Positions 1,574-18,682 are shown, numbered from the stretch's first letter. The stretch is 18,682 bases of DNA from a virus (IMGVR_UViG_2778261570_000014); one strand, 5' to 3'. Notes: generated by a model not told the origin, from the sequence alone. Program-made: numbers and translations.

Positions 1574-1638
1574 ACGAACATAGCCCCTTCATAAGCAATG
1601 AACCAAAGGAGAGTATGCTCAGTTTGTGATTTCCGTTG

Positions 1639-4330: not shown

Positions 4331-7300
4331 TTAATCCTCAAGCAGAGCATCCAGCGACTGGTCATTAATAGTTGTGCTCGCACGTGGTCGCGGCTGCGGC
4401 TGCGATGTTTTGACAACATTATCCGGATCGCCTTTTGTATTGTTCTTGTTCACATTCAGCAGATCGTTCAGGATAGAGCAGATGTTATCCAGCGCCTTCA
4501 ACATAGCAGGATCGTTATTTATAGTGTCAGTAGTTAATGGTTGTCTTATTCCGCTTCGTGCGAGATCGGTTACAGTAGGGAGTTGTGGCGGCATAGCAAG
4601 AAAAGGTTCTTGCACAGCTGAAGCAGAGCCAAATATGGCGTTATTGGCACCAGTTGCTATTCCCCTAATGCTATTAGCGGTTTGTTGAATCCCCCCATTC
4701 AGCCAGTCTCCAACATTTCTTGTTAATGGGCTAATAGCTCGCGCAATCGCACTATTCTGCCCAGTAGACTGCATTACAAGATCGTTCAATATCCCTGTAC
4801 TATCAATCCCCCCAACAAGTCGTGAAAGGTTATCGCCAACGGCAGGAATTACTGCGGTTCCTGTCTGTTTAAGCCCTGACACCGTGGAATCAAATAGCGA
4901 ACCAAAGAAGCTCTTATCCTCACCTGTAACCACCTTGTAGCCGTTGTCATAAATCTGCACATCACTTGGTGCCGTGATAGTTCGTTTTCCAGAGGTAACT
5001 ACTGGCGCAGCTCCCGCCATAGCCTGGCTGATTGCTAGAGCCTGCTCCTGCTGTGGGGTTTTCGGTGCAGGCGCTGCAGACGAAAAGCCCGCCATAGCCT
5101 GGCTGATTGCTAGAGCCTGCTCCTGCTGTGGAGTTTTCGGTGCTGGCGCTGCAGATGAAAAGCCCGCCATAGCCTGGCTGATTGCTAGAGCCTGCTCCTG
5201 CTGTGGAGTTTTCGGTGCTGGCGCTGCAGATGAAAAGCCCGCCATAGCCTGGCTGATTGCTAGAGCCTGCTCCTGCTGTGGAGTTTTCGGTGCTGGCGCT
5301 GCAGATGAAAAGCCCGCCATAGCCTGGCTGATTGCTAGAGCCTGCTCCTGCTGTGGAGTTTTCGGAGTAGAAGGGGATACTTGATCTCCCGGAAGTAGAT
5401 CAATGATTTCTGTATCGTGATTAACAGTGCGTTTTTGTTGTATGGCTGTTGCGATATCAGCCGCTTGAGAAGCTTTTTTAAATCCAAAAGATTTACCGGT
5501 TAAGCCGGATATCTTTTCAGTAAGAGCCTGATCCATTCCTTTCGCTTTTTCGGAAAGCGAAGATATAGAACCAAACGAAGTAGCCAACGCAAAATCCTTT
5601 ACCAGGTCCAGACTTGTTCCAGCAAGGCTGGTAGCCGCGCCGCCAAATAAATTACTTGCACCACTGATTCCGCTTTCATTTATTGCGATTAACCGCTCAA
5701 GCAAACTCGATGGAGAGCCGGTATTAACATCAGCGTTCTCTGGATTAATCGGTTGTGGTTGGTTACCTGTTTTTTGTGGCTTTTTGACTGCCTGGGCATG
5801 TTGTGCAACCTCAATTGGCTGTTGTGTTGCTGTCGGAACGGCATTCAAAACTGGTTGAGCTGGAGATTTTCCATTAGCATATTTTACCTTGCGACCAACA
5901 CTATATTGCGAATCGCGGGCAATTAGCTGACCACCATTTTCTTTCTGAATTTTATTAATCCGCGCCAATGTTTCGTCAGAGAATTGTCCCTCCCATAGAC
6001 CAGTGTTTGTGTTAAATGCTCCAAGTGCGTTCTTAATGAACTCATTATTAACTGCCGGATTTCCGCCTTCTTTCGTCGCAATTGCACGAACTAATTGCGT
6101 CATAACCTCTGGTTTGCTGACATCTATTTTTTCATTAGGCGATACACCAAGATATTTACTGACGTTATCAATATATTGGTTAGTATTGTTCTCATTTGGC
6201 GGTGCCCATTTTGAAATGATGCTGGATACCGTCTGTAACTTCTGATATCCCGCTGCGGCACTGGTGCCGTTGTAATAGCTGGAAACCTGGTTTGCCAGTG
6301 CCCTGATCCCTTCTTCAGGTGTGTTAAATCGCGCAAAACGTTGTTCACCTTTTGCATTTGGCGATTCCAGCGTCGCCCCTTCCTGGTTGGCAAAAACAAG
6401 ATTGCCGAGATTATTATTTCGGTAATTGCGGTTTTTAGCGTTGCTGCCGCCAATATTCAGATCCGCTGCAATGGTGTTGTTGGCAGGTGAACTAAATTCA
6501 GTTGGAGAAGTATACCCGTGCTCACCAACTCCATCCTCGCCATTACGCCCACCTTGTAATTGTTCACCTAGAGAATGAATCGCATCGACAGTTTTTTTGG
6601 TGCCGTCTTCAACAGCTTTTTTTACTTGTTTCGTGTTTTCGTCAGTGGATAAAAATGTATCCTTAAGGCTACCAAAAACAGATTTGGTGATATCTACCGC
6701 GCCGTTAACACCACGAGCAATATCTCCGGTATCAAAATTCTGAAGTTTTTCACCTGCTCTTTCAAATCCTAGCGCAGAAATTCCTTTCCCTATCAAGTTC
6801 GTTGCGCCCGACACCAAGCCCCCCATATCGAGCACATTAGCTGTTGCGTAAGCCGTTTTTTGCTGTTCGGCTACAGCATCATCGTCACTTAATCCAAAGG
6901 CTGCCTTTTGCGCATCTGTATCAGTGTAACCATCTATAGCGTCATATCCCGCCATAGCCAGCGAACCGATGATAGGGATAGCTCTTGCAGCTGTAGAAGC
7001 AGCTGATTTAACACCTATTTTTGCAGCACTTTTGAGGGCTACGGATTCGGTTTTTTTCTTTGCAACAGTTTCACCTGTTTTAACTGTGGCCTCTTCGGCA
7101 ACAACACCTGCTGGCTTAACTGCCTTTGCTGTGTTTTTTGTTTCTTTAGCAATACCCTTAGATGCGTCGCTTGTGGTGCTGATGTCTTTGGCTTTACTAA
7201 CCTTTGTTTTAACAGTCTTTGCAGCTCCGGCACCAGCTCCAGCAGCAGCGGTTCCGGCAGCGGCTTTTTCACCAACAGTAAGGGCTTTTTTCCCCAGATT

Positions 7301-8461
7301 GCGACCTTTCCTTTTCGGTTTGTTCCGTTTATTTTTACCAGCCTGATCGCCAATATTGATTTTATTTCTTCTGCTTGCTCGATTTCTCCAGAGATCACTT
7401 AAGCCGAACTTATTCCCAGAAGATACTGATTTGCGTAGCTTAACTACTTCGTCGGAGACATTTTCCAGACCATCAATTATTTTGTTGTCATTGGTCTGAA
7501 GAATTTTTGTTTGCTCTTCTACTGCTTGTGCTGATTTTGTCTCAACAGCATTATTAAATGCTGTTGCAGAGGTTGCTTTTTGAGTATTAACCACCGCCGG
7601 ATAAGTGATAGCTGGAGATGTCGCTTTCGAAGGTGAAGCCTCACCTTTCCCCTTTTCTACCCATTCTTTAAGAGATTCTGCTTTACCTGTGATCTCTTTA
7701 GTAATGTCGTACATGCCGCGAGCAGCCATCCACAACGGACCACCAGCGCCAACACCTGCGGCATCTGTTAAAGACTCTTCACTGGAAGACTGATTGCCAT
7801 CTACCCCTATAATGGAGCCTAATTTCCGGAGGAAGCCTTCTTGTAGTTTGGCGTCGGCCTTATGTGCTTTCTGCCATTCTTTTTTTCTGGCTATATCTTC
7901 GTTGTTTTTCTGGGATACAAAGCGTCCGTTACTATCCCGAAGCGGTCCTTTTTGGCTTTGGGGGGATTGTGGTTCAAGAGGAGCAGAATTAGCGGCTAAT
8001 GGCACAGAACCTTTCAACTTTTGGGCTGACTGGCGTGATGACGCAAAATGAACGCGCTCTGATGTGTTGGTTGCAACAATGAGACGTTCTTCTCCGTTGT
8101 TGACCTGCGTCCTCCCTTTTTTCATCGGAAGGCGTTTTATATATGGGTTAGCTTGGGTATTCTTGGCATCATCAGAGACATAGGGTTCGCTTGCTATGAG
8201 TCTACGGGATAGTCTTTGACTTACTTTACCTTGATTTTCACCAAGTTGAGTTATAGACCCTCTACCAGAGAGAATGGCGTCTTTGATCTCAGCAAGAGCG
8301 TTAAGTTCGTTTGTGCTCGCCCCCTGAATAGCGTCAATTATTGCGATACGGTCTTTATTCTCTTTCAAAATAACCTCTCTTTTGCCAGCGGCGATCAACG
8401 TTTCCCGGCTTGAGCTTTGTATTTTTCTTCCAGGGCTTTTGACATATGGAGTGCTCGCCAT
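4331..8461 (-). CDS. Large virion protein (1376 aa), tape-measure-like or structural injection protein
   Basis: Long ORF immediately upstream of the baseplate genes. Contains a Lys/Ala/Gly-rich low-complexity region, a globular segment (NNLGNLVFANQEG...GIRALANQV...WAPPNENNT...) and five 25-aa tandem repeats. ATG at 8461. Confidence 0.6.
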   Translation of the reverse strand: MASTPYVKSPGRKIQSSSRETLIAAGKREVILKENKDRIAIIDAIQGASTNELNALAEIKDAILSGRGSITQLGENQGKVSQRLSRRLIASEPYVSDDAKNTQANPYIKRLPMKKGRTQVNNGEERLIVATNTSERVHFASSRQSAQKLKGSVPLAANSAPLEPQSPQSQKGPLRDSNGRFVSQKNNEDIARKKEWQKAHKADAKLQEGFLRKLGSIIGVDGNQSSSEESLTDAAGVGAGGPLWMAARGMYDITKEITGKAESLKEWVEKGKGEASPSKATSPAITYPAVVNTQKATSATAFNNAVETKSAQAVEEQTKILQTNDNKIIDGLENVSDEVVKLRKSVSSGNKFGLSDLWRNRASRRNKINIGDQAGKNKRNKPKRKGRNLGKKALTVGEKAAAGTAAAGAGAGAAKTVKTKVSKAKDISTTSDASKGIAKETKNTAKAVKPAGVVAEEATVKTGETVAKKKTESVALKSAAKIGVKSAASTAARAIPIIGSLAMAGYDAIDGYTDTDAQKAAFGLSDDDAVAEQQKTAYATANVLDMGGLVSGATNLIGKGISALGFERAGEKLQNFDTGDIARGVNGAVDITKSVFGSLKDTFLSTDENTKQVKKAVEDGTKKTVDAIHSLGEQLQGGRNGEDGVGEHGYTSPTEFSSPANNTIAADLNIGGSNAKNRNYRNNNLGNLVFANQEGATLESPNAKGEQRFARFNTPEEGIRALANQVSSYYNGTSAAAGYQKLQTVSSIISKWAPPNENNTNQYIDNVSKYLGVSPNEKIDVSKPEVMTQLVRAIATKEGGNPAVNNEFIKNALGAFNTNTGLWEGQFSDETLARINKIQKENGGQLIARDSQYSVGRKVKYANGKSPAQPVLNAVPTATQQPIEVAQHAQAVKKPQKTGNQPQPINPENADVNTGSPSSLLERLIAINESGISGASNLFGGAATSLAGTSLDLVKDFALATSFGSISSLSEKAKGMDQALTEKISGLTGKSFGFKKASQAADIATAIQQKRTVNHDTEIIDLLPGDQVSPSTPKTPQQEQALAISQAMAGFSSAAPAPKTPQQEQALAISQAMAGFSSAAPAPKTPQQEQALAISQAMAGFSSAAPAPKTPQQEQALAISQAMAGFSSAAPAPKTPQQEQALAISQAMAGAAPVVTSGKRTITAPSDVQIYDNGYKVVTGEDKSFFGSLFDSTVSGLKQTGTAVIPAVGDNLSRLVGGIDSTGILNDLVMQSTGQNSAIARAISPLTRNVGDWLNGGIQQTANSIRGIATGANNAIFGSASAVQEPFLAMPPQLPTVTDLARSGIRQPLTTDTINNDPAMLKALDNICSILNDLLNVNKNNTKGDPDNVVKTSQPQPRPRASTTINDQSLDALLED
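5010..5366 (-). repeat. Tandem direct repeat, 75-bp unit in about 4.75 copies, inside the large virion protein gene
   Basis: GCCATAGCC recurs at 5016, 5091, 5166, 5241 and 5316 (period exactly 75). The middle copies are identical and the first differs at a few positions. Encodes (APAPKTPQQEQALAISQAMAGFSSA)n in frame. Confidence 0.9.
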
Positions 8462-9337: not shown

Positions 9338-9442
9338 TTATTCCTCCGAAAAGCAGGTATCTGTTCATTTTCCAGAGGATAGGGAGTGTGTGATTTGCGA
9401 TGGGGATTGAATGAAGATCTTTGCCGGTCGAGAAGCGATTAT

Positions 9443-9583: not shown

Positions 9584-9701
9584 GGTGTAAGATTTGCCCT
9601 CAATTAAATACGATCGGTGTAAGATTTGCCCTCAGAAGGTGTAAGATTTGCCCTCAAAAGGTGTAGTAATTGCCCTCAAAGTGGTGTAAAAATTGCCCTC
9701 A
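9584..9701 (+). repeat. Iteron array: five direct 19-bp repeats (consensus GGTGTAAGATTTGCCCTCA) upstream of repA
   Basis: Copies at 9584-9602, 9616-9634, 9638-9656, 9660-9678 and 9683-9701. The first three are identical; copies 4 and 5 differ at 2-3 positions. Spacing 32, 22, 22, 23 bp. Confidence 0.85.
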
Positions 9702-9725
9702 CCATTTGAAGGATCACACAGGGTT

Positions 9726-10481
9726 ATGAACAGAGCGGAATTAACAGCAAAAGCCGTCAGCCTGATTGAGTCAGCGACACCTATTAGTCGTAGTCTGGCA
9801 CAAGCCAATGAGATCACGGAGGCTGCTTATCACCTGACTCGCGACCAAAAGCGACTGTTGTTTATTGTGGTGGGAAGACTTCGCTATGCTTCTAAGGATG
9901 GCGTTCTTGGTTCAGGTGCCTGTGAGTTGACGGTCAACGAATATGCAGAGATGTATAATTTGCCCTCTGCTGAAGCCAGCAAGGATATTCGTAAGGCCAT
10001 TTCAGGGCTTAGCGAGAAGAAAGTTACGATATATAACCCTGATGAATCGACCGAATCAGAAGACAGTTATGAGTCTTATCCCTGGATGATTAAGGATGCC
10101 TATTCACCACGGCGCGGGACTTACATTATTCATCTTAATCCATATCTCATGCCGTTTTTTACTCTGCTTGATAAGAGATTCACAAGGCTGAATTTTACCG
10201 AAGTATCTCGCCTTACAAATCCTTATTCTATGCGGCTTTATGAGTCCTTATGCCAGTACAGGAAGGATGATGGAAGCGGCTTTGCCATACTTGGCGTCGA
10301 ATGGATGCGGGAGCGTTATGGGTTACCAAAAAGCTATCAGCGGTATGCCGAATTTAAGAGAAGTTTTTTAACGAAGGCTGTAGCAGAGATTGAAAAAAAT
10401 ACAAAAATGAAAATAGTCTTCTCAGAGGTGACGGAAGGCGGCAAAGTTACCAGGATAAAATTTACCTATCAGCAGTCTTAA
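9726..10481 (+). CDS. repA: Replication initiator RepA, Rep_3 family (iteron-binding)
   Basis: 251 aa from ATG 9726 (the ORF track starts at an in-frame TTG at 9693 inside iteron 5). Flanked by iterons; resembles pSC101 RepA from memory (LTRDQKRLLFIVVG..., NPYSMRLYESL..., C-terminal KVTRIKFTY). Only gene on the plus strand in a minus-strand cluster. Confidence 0.85.
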   Translation: MNRAELTAKAVSLIESATPISRSLAQANEITEAAYHLTRDQKRLLFIVVGRLRYASKDGVLGSGACELTVNEYAEMYNLPSAEASKDIRKAISGLSEKKVTIYNPDESTESEDSYESYPWMIKDAYSPRRGTYIIHLNPYLMPFFTLLDKRFTRLNFTEVSRLTNPYSMRLYESLCQYRKDDGSGFAILGVEWMRERYGLPKSYQRYAEFKRSFLTKAVAEIEKNTKMKIVFSEVTEGGKVTRIKFTYQQS

Positions 10482-16264: not shown

Positions 16265-17962
16265 TCACTTTTTTTCGTTAACCTTGCCTGTCAGCATGTC
16301 GATAGCACCTTCTTTGGCACGAGTCAGACGCAGGCGGGTGAAGTAGTTTTCACCGTTGCGAGGATGTACTTCGTTGATGGCACTGCCCCAGAGAGTGGTA
16401 CGGTTAACGAGAGACGGATTGGTTTCGTGAACGTAAGGGATTGCTGGGACTGCATCACCAGCAATCAGACCGGCTTTACCGATGCCTTCGCCACGCCCAT
16501 AGAAGAAGATGTCATCCAGCCCGAAGTCATATCCCTGTGCCAGGAATTGCTCACAGACAGGTTGCGGCACTTCGTAAATACGAATCGTGCCAAACAGGGT
16601 GCCGATGTACTGTACATACGGCGACTGAACGTAACCTGGTGCGATCTGGAAGTGCTGTGGAGGCAGAGAGCGCAGGAAGTTCGCGGCGTCACTACCAGCA
16701 AAGCCGCCACGAATACCCGTTGTCAGGGTACGATTTGCCATTTCTTGAGACAGAGCGTTTACTGCGTGACGCAGGAGGCCGACCCTGGACTCATAGTTTT
16801 GAGCTTCCGGCAGAGCCACATCAAATTCACGACCATAAACGGTATGGAATACCAGGGTGCGCAGACGCATGATGTCGGTTTCATGGGAGATCCAGTTACG
16901 CATCGCGGAGAACTGAAGTGCCGCTAATTCAAGGCCGTGCTCACGGCTTAAATCGGATGCGGACATTACCGTGTGTTCGGAAGCAAGTACGTACTGGGAC
17001 GGACGAACTTCGTACTTACGCATAGCCTGGTTGATCACCGGAATCAGGCTTGGATTGCGCTCGATGTTAATTTCGACCTGAACAGCAATTTCAGTACCTA
17101 CTGGCGGAGCCTGGGTAAATGTAATGTCAATGACACCAGTGTCATAGGCAACTTTGGCAGTCGCTGAGAAAGTATTACCTTTGCTGTCTTTAGCATTGAA
17201 ATAAAGGTTGCCATCGCCGTCGTCAACTTTGGACGGTTTGCGGTTGATCAGCAGTTTGTTATAACCAGCGCGAAGCGGGCAGGATTGTCCCTCAAATTTT
17301 TGGATGTTGAACTGGAAGGTTTTGGTGCTGCCATCCCCTTTAGTGGAAAGGGCATACAGGCGCTTCATTTGAGAATAAACACCAGCTGACTGCATATTCA
17401 GTTCGTCACCTTGTTTGAAGGTGCCGAATTTTGTGCCTGCTACGTTGACCAGTTCATAAATATTTGACTCGTCACGATCACAAGGAACAAAAGTACAGGC
17501 ATCACTGGTAGCAGCGCCCAGAGAGGCAGGCAGAATTAGAGCAGCATATTGAGCAACTTTCATTACGCCGTCAGAGCTACGCATTGATTGCGCGACAGAC
17601 TCAAACATTGCCTTACCCGTGCCTTCATGGGTATCACTGGCACATTCAGTCATCAGGCGTTCAAGAGCCATGTGTGCGTTCGCCAGGATGTCACTTGCCG
17701 GGTAATGACCATGTTGATGTTTATACTCATGCAGAGACATAGCCCACCCACCAGTGATCTGACGAGCGACCTCTGGATTTACGCCTTCAAACATAGGCAC
17801 TTTCTGGATTGCTTTATCCAGGTTTTCCATCATTACTGCCTGGTCAGCAATCATGTTGCCTGCTGCATCGGTGGTCGGATCGACGGTCATAGCCATGACG
17901 CTTGCCGCCCGATTCATAATCTCGCGCTCGCGATCACGAGCTGGCTGAATGTTTTTATTCAC
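16265..17962 (-). CDS. Putative major capsid protein (up to 565 aa)
   Basis: Long ORF upstream of the Ig-like and sheath genes; function assigned by position and size only. Start is ambiguous between GTG 17962 and ATG 17917; neither has a strong Shine-Dalgarno. Confidence 0.45.
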   Translation of the reverse strand: MNKNIQPARDREREIMNRAASVMAMTVDPTTDAAGNMIADQAVMMENLDKAIQKVPMFEGVNPEVARQITGGWAMSLHEYKHQHGHYPASDILANAHMALERLMTECASDTHEGTGKAMFESVAQSMRSSDGVMKVAQYAALILPASLGAATSDACTFVPCDRDESNIYELVNVAGTKFGTFKQGDELNMQSAGVYSQMKRLYALSTKGDGSTKTFQFNIQKFEGQSCPLRAGYNKLLINRKPSKVDDGDGNLYFNAKDSKGNTFSATAKVAYDTGVIDITFTQAPPVGTEIAVQVEINIERNPSLIPVINQAMRKYEVRPSQYVLASEHTVMSASDLSREHGLELAALQFSAMRNWISHETDIMRLRTLVFHTVYGREFDVALPEAQNYESRVGLLRHAVNALSQEMANRTLTTGIRGGFAGSDAANFLRSLPPQHFQIAPGYVQSPYVQYIGTLFGTIRIYEVPQPVCEQFLAQGYDFGLDDIFFYGRGEGIGKAGLIAGDAVPAIPYVHETNPSLVNRTTLWGSAINEVHPRNGENYFTRLRLTRAKEGAIDMLTGKVNEKK

Positions 17963-18120
17963 GGTTAAGCCCTAAATTCGGGCGCGGCGTGAAGGTTCTT
18001 TTGACGGGCTAACAATACCTACTTTGTGATTTAGTCAATAGGTTTAGTAAAATAAAATCTATTAACACGCATGTTGTTATGTGATTTAATTTTAATTTTC
18101 TAACACAAATCATTAGAGTT
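17963..18120. promoter_or_regulatory. AT-rich divergent intergenic region, probable promoters for the capsid gene and the plus-strand gene
   Basis: Markedly AT-rich; TTGACG at 18001-18006; TGTGATTTA occurs twice (about 18026 and 18081). No confident -10/-35 assignment. Confidence 0.35.
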
Positions 18121-18525
18121 ATGGCGTATCGAATCTTTGTTTCGTATAAAAATGGCGCTAAGAGCCACTCTCTGAACACAACAAGTCGCTTTCTTGTTGA
18201 GGCGCAGTTGGCATCAATTCTTGCCGAAAGTGAGATACTCTCGCTCGCTGAACGGATCGTTATCCAGTTTTCTGGTAGAGATATACTCAATGTCCCCGCC
18301 CTCACCCCGGCATCCGAAGTTATGGAATCAGTTAAATGGCCTGTATGCGGATGTCCTGCCAGGGTTGAAGAGCCGGTAACTGCAACGCTCTACATGCCGA
18401 AAGCAGTAAGAGATTGGCTTGCTATGGTTGGCAATGGGAAAGTCAGTGCTGGACTTCGCAAGTTAATTGAAATGGCGGATATTCCTGAGTTAAAAAACGC
18501 ATGGCGACAGCGAACAGATTTTTAG
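18121..18525 (+). CDS. Hypothetical small protein (134 aa); C-terminal segment has a ribbon-helix-helix-like pattern
   Basis: ATG start, own AT-rich upstream region, hairpin terminator right after the stop. ...TATLYMPKAVRDWLAMVGNGKVSAGLRKLIEMA reads as strand, helix, G-x-S-type turn, helix (inference only). Preferred over the overlapping minus ORF 18009..18305. Confidence 0.45.
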   Translation: MAYRIFVSYKNGAKSHSLNTTSRFLVEAQLASILAESEILSLAERIVIQFSGRDILNVPALTPASEVMESVKWPVCGCPARVEEPVTATLYMPKAVRDWLAMVGNGKVSAGLRKLIEMADIPELKNAWRQRTDF

Positions 18526-18533
18526 TCACGAAA

Positions 18534-18552
18534 GCCCCGGACAGGCCGGGGC
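18534..18552. terminator. GC-rich hairpin (GCCCCGG / CCGGGGC, 5-nt loop) between convergent genes
   Basis: Sits 8 nt after the stop of the plus gene and 8 nt before the stop of the minus partial gene; flanking U-tracts are weak on both strands. Confidence 0.45.
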
Positions 18553-18560
18553 AACAGTAA

Positions 18561-18682
18561 TTAACTAACAATCCAGTCCGTAGCAACAATATCCTCTGGC
18601 GCTAAATCAATAGCATGGATTTTCCCGTCCCGGATAGTGCGCCAGTGCTTTCGTGATCCACCTTCGGGCCACACCCATATAC
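18561..18682 (-). CDS. Partial CDS, last 40 codons of a gene that starts beyond the window end
   Basis: Open minus-strand frame ending in TAA at 18563..18561 (...KIHAIDLAPEDIVATDWIVS*). Short, so statistical support is weak. Confidence 0.3.
   Translation of the reverse strand, partial: IWVWPEGGSRKHWRTIRDGKIHAIDLAPEDIVATDWIVS

What the first reader, a model, noticed from the sequence alone, without database searches (positions are those of the whole stretch)
17963..18552. Self-contained plus-strand gene (moron-like) beside the capsid gene, with a possible ribbon-helix-helix DNA-binding segment
It is the only plus-strand gene in the structural cluster apart from repA. It has its own AT-rich upstream region carrying a duplicated TGTGATTTA motif (a candidate operator) and a hairpin terminator shared with a convergent gene. 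The C-terminal segment reads like a ribbon-helix-helix fold. Such insertions often encode regulators, toxin-antitoxin components or anti-defense factors. Whether the convergent downstream gene is its partner cannot be judged from 40 codons.
Basis: inference. Interest (0 to 1): 0.6.

Follow-up and report, generated by a model that had tools for sequence, protein, structure and literature searches.

The report
Conserved early gene beside capsid gene
This is a real, uncharacterised small gene found in every D6-type (P1-like) phage-plasmid, always back-to-back with the capsid gene; it probably encodes a DNA-binding protein that is kept off in the dormant state, so it is not a randomly acquired "moron".

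Summary
The window is a D6-like (P1-related) E. coli phage-plasmid. The ORF at 18121-18525 (+, 134 aa) is phage D6 orf52 (hypothetical; PHROG 7830). It is under purifying selection (dN/dS 0.06-0.18).

- **Not a moron.** Homologues down to 22% identity sit divergent from the major capsid gene in six lineages, while the downstream genes differ completely. About 140 plasmids carry it, against 136 with a D6-type capsid. P1 lacks it.
- **TGTGATTTA is not its operator.** Copy 1 is the -22 box of the capsid gene's P1-type late promoter; AAATCACA-N3-N4-YANNNT recurs upstream of about nine D6 late genes. Copy 2 overlaps the ORF's own conserved extended -10 promoter (TTAACA-17-TGnTTTAAT).
- **A different candidate operator.** The 17-mer ATTTTCTAACACAAATC (18095-18111) has 5 near-exact copies in D6 against 0.017 expected, at lpa, ref, icd-ant and c1. 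That is C1-type placement, so the gene is probably repressed in the prophage and expressed early.
- **The hairpin** belongs to an inserted c4-icd-ant module that is absent from D6.
- **The C-terminal ribbon-helix-helix** is plausible but unproven: the secondary structure and GxGxxS turn fit, and hhalign gives P 4.6e-4, but Pfam finds nothing. The N-terminal domain has no significant structural match.

Function remains unknown. Interest is modest.

The parts
16265..17962 (-). Major capsid protein gene (P1 gene 23 homologue), the conserved divergent neighbour of the ORF.
   Evidence: 98% identical to D6 orf51 and 44% to P1 gp23.
17958..17993 (-). Conserved structured 5'UTR of the capsid mRNA. 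The inner stem is GCCC/GGGC. The outer stem UUCAC/GUGAA pairs the GUG start codon.
   Evidence: Conserved across genera. RNAalifold finds 9 pairs, one of them covarying.
18012..18032 (-). P1-type late promoter of the capsid gene: box AAATCACAAAG, 4 nt, then -10 TATTGT. It contains TGTGATTTA copy 1 (18025-18033 on the + strand).
   Evidence: Same layout as P1 LP23 and LPmat as annotated in AF234172. The box recurs in sense upstream of R, pmgB, 23, mat, 7, ddrB, prt and orf16 in D6. It is conserved in Pantoea, Leclercia and Citrobacter.
18062..18090 (+). Probable sigma-70 promoter of the ORF: -35 TTAACA (18062-67), a 17-nt spacer, extended -10 TGa-TTTAAT (18082-90). It overlaps TGTGATTTA copy 2 (18080-18088).
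   Evidence: The hexamers, the TG and the 17-nt spacing are conserved in five D6-like sequences while the spacer sequence varies. The promoter is inferred, not shown by transcript data.
18095..18111 (+). 17-bp asymmetric operator-like element ATTTTCTAACACAAATC, starting 4 nt after the -10 and covering the expected transcription start. It is probably the site of the C1-type immunity repressor.
   Evidence: D6 has 5 copies with at most 2 mismatches against 0.017 expected. They lie at icd-ant, ref/orf88, hrdC/5 and orf52, with weaker copies at lpa, c1 and cre. There is a single copy in the window. It shares a TCTAA core with P1 Oref.
18121..18525 (+). The ORF, 134 aa (D6 orf52 family, PHROG 7830). 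Residues 1-72 form the N-terminal alpha/beta domain (18121-18336). Residues 73-85 are a low-confidence linker. Residues 86-119 are the RHH-like strand-helix-helix (18376-18477). Residues 122-132 are an extra helix.
18509..18510 (.). Mosaic junction. Identity to D6 ends exactly at the position of D6's stop codon. The window gains 4 codons (RTDF) and then foreign DNA.
18534..18552 (.). G/C hairpin between the convergent genes. It looks more like a terminator for the minus-strand ant-like gene and belongs to the inserted module.
18561..18682 (-). Last 39 codons and the stop codon of an ORF6N-domain (Ant-like) gene, the last gene of a c4-icd-ant (immI-type) operon that continues beyond the window.

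Best explanation
The ORF is a lineage-defining core gene of D6-type P1-like phage-plasmids, not an accessory insertion.

Protein (shown or predicted): it has two domains. Residues 1-72 form a confidently predicted alpha/beta domain with no significant structural relative. The C-terminal segment has the pattern of a ribbon-helix-helix dimerisation and DNA-binding module, followed by one extra helix.

Regulation (inferred from sequence): the gene is transcribed from its own conserved sigma-70 extended -10 promoter. A 17-bp asymmetric operator begins 4 nt downstream of the -10. The same operator is dispersed over the D6 genome at the places where P1 carries C1 operators. The gene would therefore be silent in the plasmid prophage and switched on early after derepression or infection.

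The repeat: the ORF sits back-to-back with the Lpa-type late promoter of the capsid gene. The two TGTGATTTA copies are (1) that late promoter's -22 box and (2) part of the ORF's own -10 region.

Role (inferred): an early lytic-cycle DNA-binding regulator, probably autoregulatory. It may act on the shared 158-bp control region next to the capsid late promoter. Its actual target is unknown.
For: Real gene: dN/dS 0.06-0.18. The exhaustive profile search found 28 relatives, nearly all 126-144 aa with the same architecture.

Core and syntenic: it is divergent from the capsid gene, 60-176 bp away, in six lineages: D6-like E. coli/Salmonella elements (D6 itself and the window's own variant), Pantoea, Leclercia, Serratia, Citrobacter and a 99-kb IMG/VR contig (22% identity). 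Downstream genes are unrelated between them: orf53, umuDC, HTH + repB, a 12-gene operon, icd-ant. Homologues are in 140 plasmids against 136 with a capsid at least 60% identical; about 800 P1-type plasmids and P1/P7 lack it. GC content matches the neighbours.

Promoter: TTAACA-17-TGnTTTAAT is conserved with a variable spacer.

Operator: 5 copies with at most 2 mismatches against 0.017 expected. Positions are at icd-ant, ref/orf88, lpa and c1. The lpa promoter has the same TTTAAT-N4-operator layout. Pantoea's orthologue also carries that element's own dispersed 15-mer at its promoter.

Late promoter: AAATCACA occurs 4 times in the window, all on the minus strand upstream of late operons (1.15 expected). 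D6 has 17 copies against 5.2 expected, 10 of them 50-157 nt upstream of late genes in sense and each followed by N3-N4-YANNNT. The geometry equals P1 LP23 and LPmat.

RHH: the AF2 model has pLDDT 80, with an extended segment at 86-93, H94-103 and H108-119. G104 and G106 are invariant, with conserved S109 and G111. hhalign against Arc/Mnt/CopG/NikR/ParG/omega/MetJ gives P 4.6e-4 over 35 columns in register. There is a weak profile hit to the antitoxin MazE9, E 0.46; that MazE9 is an RHH protein is from my own knowledge, not a tool result. A metagenomic relative carries the motif twice in tandem.
Against: No curated RHH model matches any of 23 members (Pfam, E up to 10). The hhalign probability is only 33%. 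The dimeric beta-ribbon could not be modelled, and the tandem-repeat protein gave an unusable model (pLDDT 41).

Repressor binding to the 17-mer, promoter activity and timing of expression are all inferred from sequence only.

The 17-mer shares only a TCTAA core with the P1 operator.

No target site for the protein was identified. Repeats in the ORF-proximal half of the spacer are not conserved between lineages.

Conserved position next to the capsid gene could simply reflect a module boundary rather than a functional link.
Confidence: 0.55

Rival explanations
1. Early anti-defence or antitoxin-mimic protein. The N-terminal alpha/beta domain binds and neutralises a host protein, such as a toxin or defence nuclease, in the manner of T4 Dmd. 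The C-terminal RHH serves only for dimerisation and autorepression, like fused Acr-Aca proteins.
Confidence: 0.2
2. Plasmid-maintenance DNA-binding protein of the ParG/CopG/omega kind (partition adaptor or copy-number repressor), taking the place that parS-parB-parA occupy next to gene 23 in P1.
For: In P1 the DNA immediately upstream of LP23 is the centromere parS followed by parB and parA. ParG also has a C-terminal RHH. RepB-type initiators lie 1-3 kb downstream in the Leclercia and Serratia elements.
Against: D6 already has StbA/StbB and a small ParA + orf61 pair elsewhere. No adjacent ATPase partner is conserved. No iterated centromere-like repeats are conserved near the gene. A repressor-type operator on its promoter argues against expression in the plasmid state.
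Confidence: 0.1
3. One reading: a moron, or toxin-antitoxin or accessory cassette, with its own operator (TGTGATTTA x2) and terminator, expressed from the prophage, possibly partnered with the convergent gene.
For: It has its own promoter region, an orientation opposite to the structural genes, and a hairpin after the stop codon in this window. It borders a recombination hot spot.
Against: The position is conserved in all D6-type lineages. Composition is normal. The repeat copies are explained by the late promoter and by the ORF's -10 region, and they do not co-vary in relatives. The convergent gene is ant of a c4-icd-ant module present in only 12 of 121 matching plasmids. No conserved neighbour could be a toxin.
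Confidence: 0.07
4. Head-morphogenesis accessory protein, such as a capsid chaperone or assembly factor, linked to the capsid gene for functional reasons. The 'RHH' would be only a dimerisation motif.
For: Invariable linkage to the major capsid gene across about 50% capsid divergence.
Against: It is transcribed divergently from a sigma-70-type promoter carrying an early-type operator, not from a late promoter. It has no similarity to any known head protein. P1 assembles a homologous capsid without it.
Confidence: 0.08

Closest known systems
Ribbon-helix-helix (Arc/MetJ/CopG) DNA-binding proteins, especially those with a C-terminal RHH (ParG, HicB-type antitoxins)
   Same: Strand-helix-helix order in about 35 residues, ending the strand with Pro (YMP, compared with Arc RWP and Mnt RMP). 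A Gly-rich G-x-x-S turn caps helix B. It is a small phage/plasmid protein. hhalign aligns it in register with Arc/Mnt/CopG.
Phage D6 orf52 / PHROG 7830 (unknown function)
   Same: Same gene: 98% identical over 130 aa, in the same position.
   Different: In the window the last codons and everything downstream are replaced by a c4-icd-ant module. D6 has orf53 co-oriented 16 nt downstream instead.
P1 C1-controlled early genes and the P1 C1 operator (17-bp asymmetric, dispersed, e.g. Oref, Omat)
   Same: A dispersed asymmetric 17-mer at promoters of lpa, ref, the immunity operon and c1. It is placed over or just after the -10. It shares the TCTAA core.
   Different: The sequence differs from P1 (ATTTTCTAACACAAATC against ATTGCTCTAATTGATTG). 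Binding by the D6-type C1 is not shown. P1 has no orf52 homologue.
P1 late promoters (Lpa-dependent; -22 box + 4 nt + -10, e.g. LP23 AAGTGACTT-TCAA-TAAAAT)
   Same: The geometry and the genomic placement upstream of 23, mat, pmgB, R, prt and others are identical.
   Different: The box sequence is AAATCACA(A/C)A(G/C) in D6-like elements and GCAAATTACAAAC in Pantoea.
T4 Dmd antitoxin (N-terminal domain only)
   Different: The match is not significant and there is no sequence similarity. Dmd has no DNA-binding domain.

Membership tests
Ribbon-helix-helix superfamily | Beta-strand, helix A, helix B in that order within about 40-45 residues | tested here: met
   AF2 model (pLDDT 80): extended 86-93, H94-103, H108-119. 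The strand is unpaired, as expected for a monomer model.
Ribbon-helix-helix superfamily | G-X-S/T/N turn at the N-terminus of helix B and an alternating polar/hydrophobic strand | tested here: met
   G104 and G106 are invariant. S109 and G111 are invariant in the eight closest sequences, and G111 is at least 90% conserved across 23. The strand TATLYMP aligns with Arc QFNLRWP.
Ribbon-helix-helix superfamily | Significant sequence or profile match to a curated RHH family | tested here: not met
   Pfam gives no RHH hit for 23 members at E up to 10. The PDB profile search gives only MazE9 at E 0.46. hhalign against a hand-made RHH alignment gives prob 33%, P 4.6e-4, which is suggestive only.
Ribbon-helix-helix superfamily | Homodimer with an intersubunit two-stranded antiparallel sheet that binds DNA | not testable with these tools
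   No multimer prediction was available. The natural tandem-repeat relative P0034 gave pLDDT 41.
Moron (accessory gene inserted in a prophage) | Sporadic presence among otherwise collinear relatives | tested here: not met
   The gene is in the same position in six lineages. 140 plasmids have the gene against 136 with a D6-type capsid.
Moron (accessory gene inserted in a prophage) | Atypical base composition | tested here: not met
   GC is 0.41-0.49 over the ORF and 0.46-0.54 over the neighbours.
Moron (accessory gene inserted in a prophage) | Own promoter and terminator, expressed from the repressed prophage | tested here: inconclusive
   A promoter is present. The hairpin exists only in this sub-lineage and lacks a U-tract on this strand. 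The operator over the start site argues for repression. No expression data are available.
Type II toxin-antitoxin (RHH antitoxin, including HicB) | Conserved adjacent co-transcribed toxin gene | tested here: not met
   The downstream neighbour differs in every lineage and is convergent here.
Type II toxin-antitoxin (RHH antitoxin, including HicB) | HicB-type N-terminal fold or Pfam HicB match | tested here: not met
P1-type C1-controlled gene | Dispersed asymmetric 17-bp operator overlapping the promoter | tested here: met
   18095-18111. D6 has 5 copies with at most 2 mismatches against 0.017 expected, at the lpa, ref, icd-ant and c1 regions.
P1-type C1-controlled gene | Binding and repression by the C1 repressor | not testable with these tools
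   This needs EMSA or a reporter. D6 encodes a C1 homologue.
P1-type late promoter (for TGTGATTTA copy 1) | Conserved box about 22 nt upstream of the start, 4 nt, a -10 hexamer and no -35, repeated in front of late operons | tested here: met

The most novel reading that the evidence does not exclude
The protein is a second, so far unrecognised tier of lytic control specific to D6-type phage-plasmids. It would be an early, C1-repressed two-domain protein. Its RHH would bind the shared 158-bp control region, or the strongly conserved capsid leader DNA, to time or gate capsid-gene late transcription. Its orphan N-terminal domain would sense or sequester a host or phage partner. An equally unexcluded alternative is a fused inhibitor-autorepressor that neutralises a host toxin or defence.
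Probability: 0.15. Interest if true: 0.6.

Novelty: new variant of a known kind. Interest (0 to 1): 0.33.

Why it matters
D6-type phage-plasmids are common in E. coli, Salmonella and related clinical and animal isolates (about 140 plasmids in PLSDB). Their regulation is inferred almost wholly from P1.

This work gives three testable additions:
- a lineage-defining early gene with a probable DNA-binding domain and an orphan N-terminal fold;
- a candidate immunity-repressor operator consensus, and a late-promoter consensus, for D6-like elements, both of which help annotate these plasmids;
- a conserved structured leader on the capsid mRNA.

It also removes a false lead: moron, toxin-antitoxin pair and duplicated operator. 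None of this overturns current understanding, so the value is incremental.

Tried and rejected
- **Pfam, NCBIfam, PADLOC.** No family for the window protein or for distant members.
- **PDB sequence and profile searches.** Nothing significant.
- **Natural tandem-repeat relative P0034 as a proxy for an RHH dimer.** The single-sequence AF2 model was unusable (pLDDT 41).
- **Word-indexed search with the C-terminal profile.** Only fragments of the same family came back.
- **Paralogy with the late activator Lpa** (same length, 130 aa). Rejected: hhalign prob 0.5%.
- **P1 late-box consensus AAGTNACTT in the window.** No enrichment. The D6-type box is different and had to be derived empirically.
- **P1 C1 operator consensus in D6.** No match at 3 or fewer mismatches.
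- **A conserved repeat pair in the intergenic region as the protein's own binding site.** Repeats exist in some lineages (L019, Pantoea) but at different places and with different sequences.
- **The search for related loci.** Multi-sequence alignments A3 and A4 were too divergent. P0014 in viral contigs and P0021 in genome contigs found nothing.
- **Papers.** The D6 genome paper (Gilcrease & Casjens 2018) and the P1 genome paper (Lobocka 2004) are not in the held library. I could not check whether the D6 operator and late-promoter consensus are already published.

Full report
**What the window is.** Megablast of 17000-18682 hits Escherichia phage D6, a P1-like plasmid prophage, at 98.7% identity over window 17000-18509. 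It also hits 121 non-mobilisable plasmids of roughly 90 kb from E. coli, Salmonella and Shigella. The D6 annotation collinear with the window reads R, 16, bplA, pmgA, sit, pmgB, repA(+), tub, pmgC, bplB, pmgG, 21, 22, orf49, 23 (major capsid) and orf52(+). The finding is D6 orf52, annotated 'hypothetical protein'.

**Observation check.**
- The ORF is 18121..18525 (+), 134 aa.
- The upstream 158 bp are 34% GC.
- TGTGATTTA occurs exactly at 18025 and 18080. An exact 9-mer repeat appears in 7% of shuffles of this region.
- The hairpin at 18534-18552 is real, with z about -4.7 on both strands. It has no U-tract on the ORF's strand and was not called by the terminator scan.
- The partial convergent ORF is the C-terminus of a 332-aa ORF6N-domain protein.
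- dN/dS among D6-like orthologues is 0.06-0.18, so this is a real gene under purifying selection.

**It is not a moron.** The word-indexed search found only 11 close relatives. The exhaustive profile search found 28, nearly all 126-144 aa with the same architecture.

tblastn places homologues in 140 plasmids of Escherichia, Salmonella, Citrobacter, Shigella, Pantoea, Enterobacter, Leclercia, Serratia and others. Among phage records only D6 has one; P1 and P7 do not.

In Pantoea pPSP-26e, and in Leclercia, Serratia and Citrobacter plasmids (24-37% identity to the query P0012), the homologue is always divergent from the major capsid gene across a 60-170-bp spacer. The same holds in a 99-kb IMG/VR contig, where the protein is only about 22% identical and the capsid 46% identical. 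Downstream genes are unrelated in each case: a hypothetical gene, umuDC then repB, a convergent HTH gene then repB, and a 12-gene co-oriented operon.

Plasmids with a capsid at least 60% identical to the window's number 136. About 800 have a P1-type capsid (roughly 44% identity). The gene therefore tracks the D6-type branch almost one-to-one. Its GC content is like its neighbours'.

**What TGTGATTTA is.** On the minus strand the motif reads TAAATCACA. AAATCACA occurs four times in the window, all on the minus strand. The sites are upstream of R (1625), pmgB (9389) and the capsid gene (18025, 18080). The expected count is 1.15, and 3 of 200 shuffles reach four.

In the complete D6 genome it occurs 17 times against 5.2 expected. 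Ten copies lie 50-157 nt upstream, in sense, of mat, 7, 23 (twice), pmgB, R, ddrB, prt and the lysis gene orf16. Each is followed by three bases, four bases and a YANNNT hexamer.

This is the geometry of P1's Lpa-dependent late promoters as annotated in AF234172: LP23 is AAGTGACTT-TCAA-TAAAAT and LPmat is AAGTGACTT-CAGT-CAGAAT. D6 encodes an Lpa homologue.

The capsid-proximal half of the spacer, including copy 1, is conserved across genera. In Pantoea the equivalent box GCAAATTACAAAC-N4-TANNNT precedes five genes: those annotated capsid, maturation control, lysozyme and head processing, plus one hypothetical. Copy 1 is therefore the capsid gene's late-promoter box.

Copy 2 is not conserved as that box in close relatives, where it reads TATGGTTTA, TATGATTTA or TGTGCTTTA. 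It lacks a usable -10 in the capsid direction.

**The ORF's own control region.** In five D6-like sequences, a -35 TT(A/C)ACA, a 17-nt spacer of variable sequence, a TG dinucleotide and a -10 TTTAAT are conserved (18062-18090). That is the signature of an extended -10 sigma-70 promoter.

Four bases downstream lies ATTTTCTAACACAAATC (18095-18111). It is conserved in the D6-like group.

In D6 this 17-mer has five copies with at most 2 mismatches, against 0.017 expected:
- upstream of the icd19-ant18 operon (exact copy);
- at orf52;
- as an overlapping inverted pair between hrdC and gene 5;
- between ref and the orf88 early operon.

Weaker copies lie at lpa (with the same TTTAAT-N4-operator layout), c1 and cre.

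For ref, the P1 record annotates a monovalent C1 operator at the corresponding place (Oref). For lpa, the immunity operon and c1, the correspondence rests on my own knowledge of P1. The P1 and D6 elements share the TCTAA core.

I infer that this is the operator of the D6-type C1 repressor. The ORF would then be repressed in the plasmid prophage and derepressed early. In Pantoea, the orthologue's promoter carries that element's own dispersed 15-mer.

**The downstream side.** Identity to D6 stops exactly at D6's stop codon. The window then reads four more codons (RTDF), the hairpin and the convergent gene. In the closest complete plasmid (NZ_CP020051) that gene is preceded by an icd-like gene, a C4 antisense RNA (Rfam RF01695, 71.7 bits) and its a1b1 targets (RF03163). 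This is a complete immI-type module.

Only 12 of the 121 matching plasmids share this arrangement. The convergent gene is therefore not a partner of the ORF, and the 'own terminator' is imported with that module.

**The protein.** AF2 on an 8-sequence alignment gives pLDDT 80. Residues 1-72 form a beta-beta-alpha-alpha-beta-beta-alpha domain with pLDDT about 90. A low-confidence linker follows, then an extended segment at 86-93, helices at 94-103 and 108-119, and a third helix at 122-132.

The C-terminal part has the RHH pattern: an alternating strand ending in Pro, a short helix, an invariant G-x-G-x-x-S-x-G turn and a second helix. hhalign against a hand-made alignment of Arc, Mnt, CopG, NikR, ParG, omega and MetJ aligns 35 columns in the expected register, with P 4.6e-4 and probability 33%. 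A PDB profile search gives only a weak hit to the antitoxin MazE9, which I know as an RHH protein.

No Pfam RHH model matches. The dimer could not be modelled. I rate RHH as likely, about 0.6-0.65, but not demonstrated.

**Mechanism.** The steps above that are shown or strongly supported are:
- a real, conserved gene;
- fixed synteny with the capsid gene;
- the late-promoter identity of copy 1;
- a dispersed operator-type 17-mer on the ORF's promoter;
- the mosaic junction at the stop codon.

The inferred steps are:
- C1 binds the 17-mer;
- the gene is early;
- the protein dimerises through an RHH and binds DNA;
- it acts as a regulator in lytic development, possibly in the shared control region.

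Rivals are an anti-defence or antitoxin-mimic protein (0.2), a maintenance protein (0.1), a head accessory protein (0.08) and the original moron/TA reading (0.07).

**Novelty and score.** The family is unannotated (PHROG 7830, unknown function). It combines an orphan N-terminal fold with a probable C-terminal RHH, which makes it a new variant of a known kind of small phage regulator. The regulatory re-reading is useful for annotating these plasmids but incremental. I could not check whether the D6 paper already lists these consensus sites. Interest is 0.33.

Noticed in passing
window 17958-17993 (minus strand): The capsid mRNA leader is conserved across genera far more strongly than the neighbouring small protein. 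It folds into a GCCC/GGGC hairpin inside an outer stem UUCAC/GUGAA. The fold buries the SD-like AGGG and the GUG start codon. One pair covaries (UA/CG, 3:3). This may be translational control of the major capsid protein.
   Followed up: partly
window 1612-1632 and 9376-9396 (minus strand): Two further D6-type late promoters: AAATCACAAAC-TGAG-CATACT upstream of R, and AAATCACACAC-TCCC-TATCCT upstream of pmgB.
   Followed up: yes
L002 (NZ_CP020051) 6662-8130, continuing from window 18561 onward: A complete immI-type module converges on the ORF: c4 a1b1 targets, C4 antisense RNA, an icd-like gene and an ORF6N Ant-like gene. It is additional to the two icd-ant operons annotated in D6.
   Followed up: partly
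phage D6 (L030/L031): 21266, 54207, 64126/64135, 76636, 4642, 209, 89958: A dispersed 17-mer ATTTTCTAACACAAATC is the probable operator set of the D6-type C1 repressor. Between hrdC and gene 5 there is an overlapping inverted pair.
   Followed up: partly
protein P0034 (metagenomic, 121 aa): It carries the strand-helix-GNGxxS-helix motif twice in tandem, possibly a single-chain version of the dimer. The AF2 single-sequence model was uninformative.
   Followed up: partly
window 4331-8461 (minus strand): The sit (tail transglycosylase/tape-measure-like) ORF is 1376 aa here but 1260 aa in D6, which implies an internal length difference.
   Followed up: no
window 9693-10481 (+): A repA-like plasmid replication initiator gene sits inside the tail gene cluster, between pmgB and tub, as in D6 (orf42). 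I did not look at its flanking repeats or origin.
   Followed up: no
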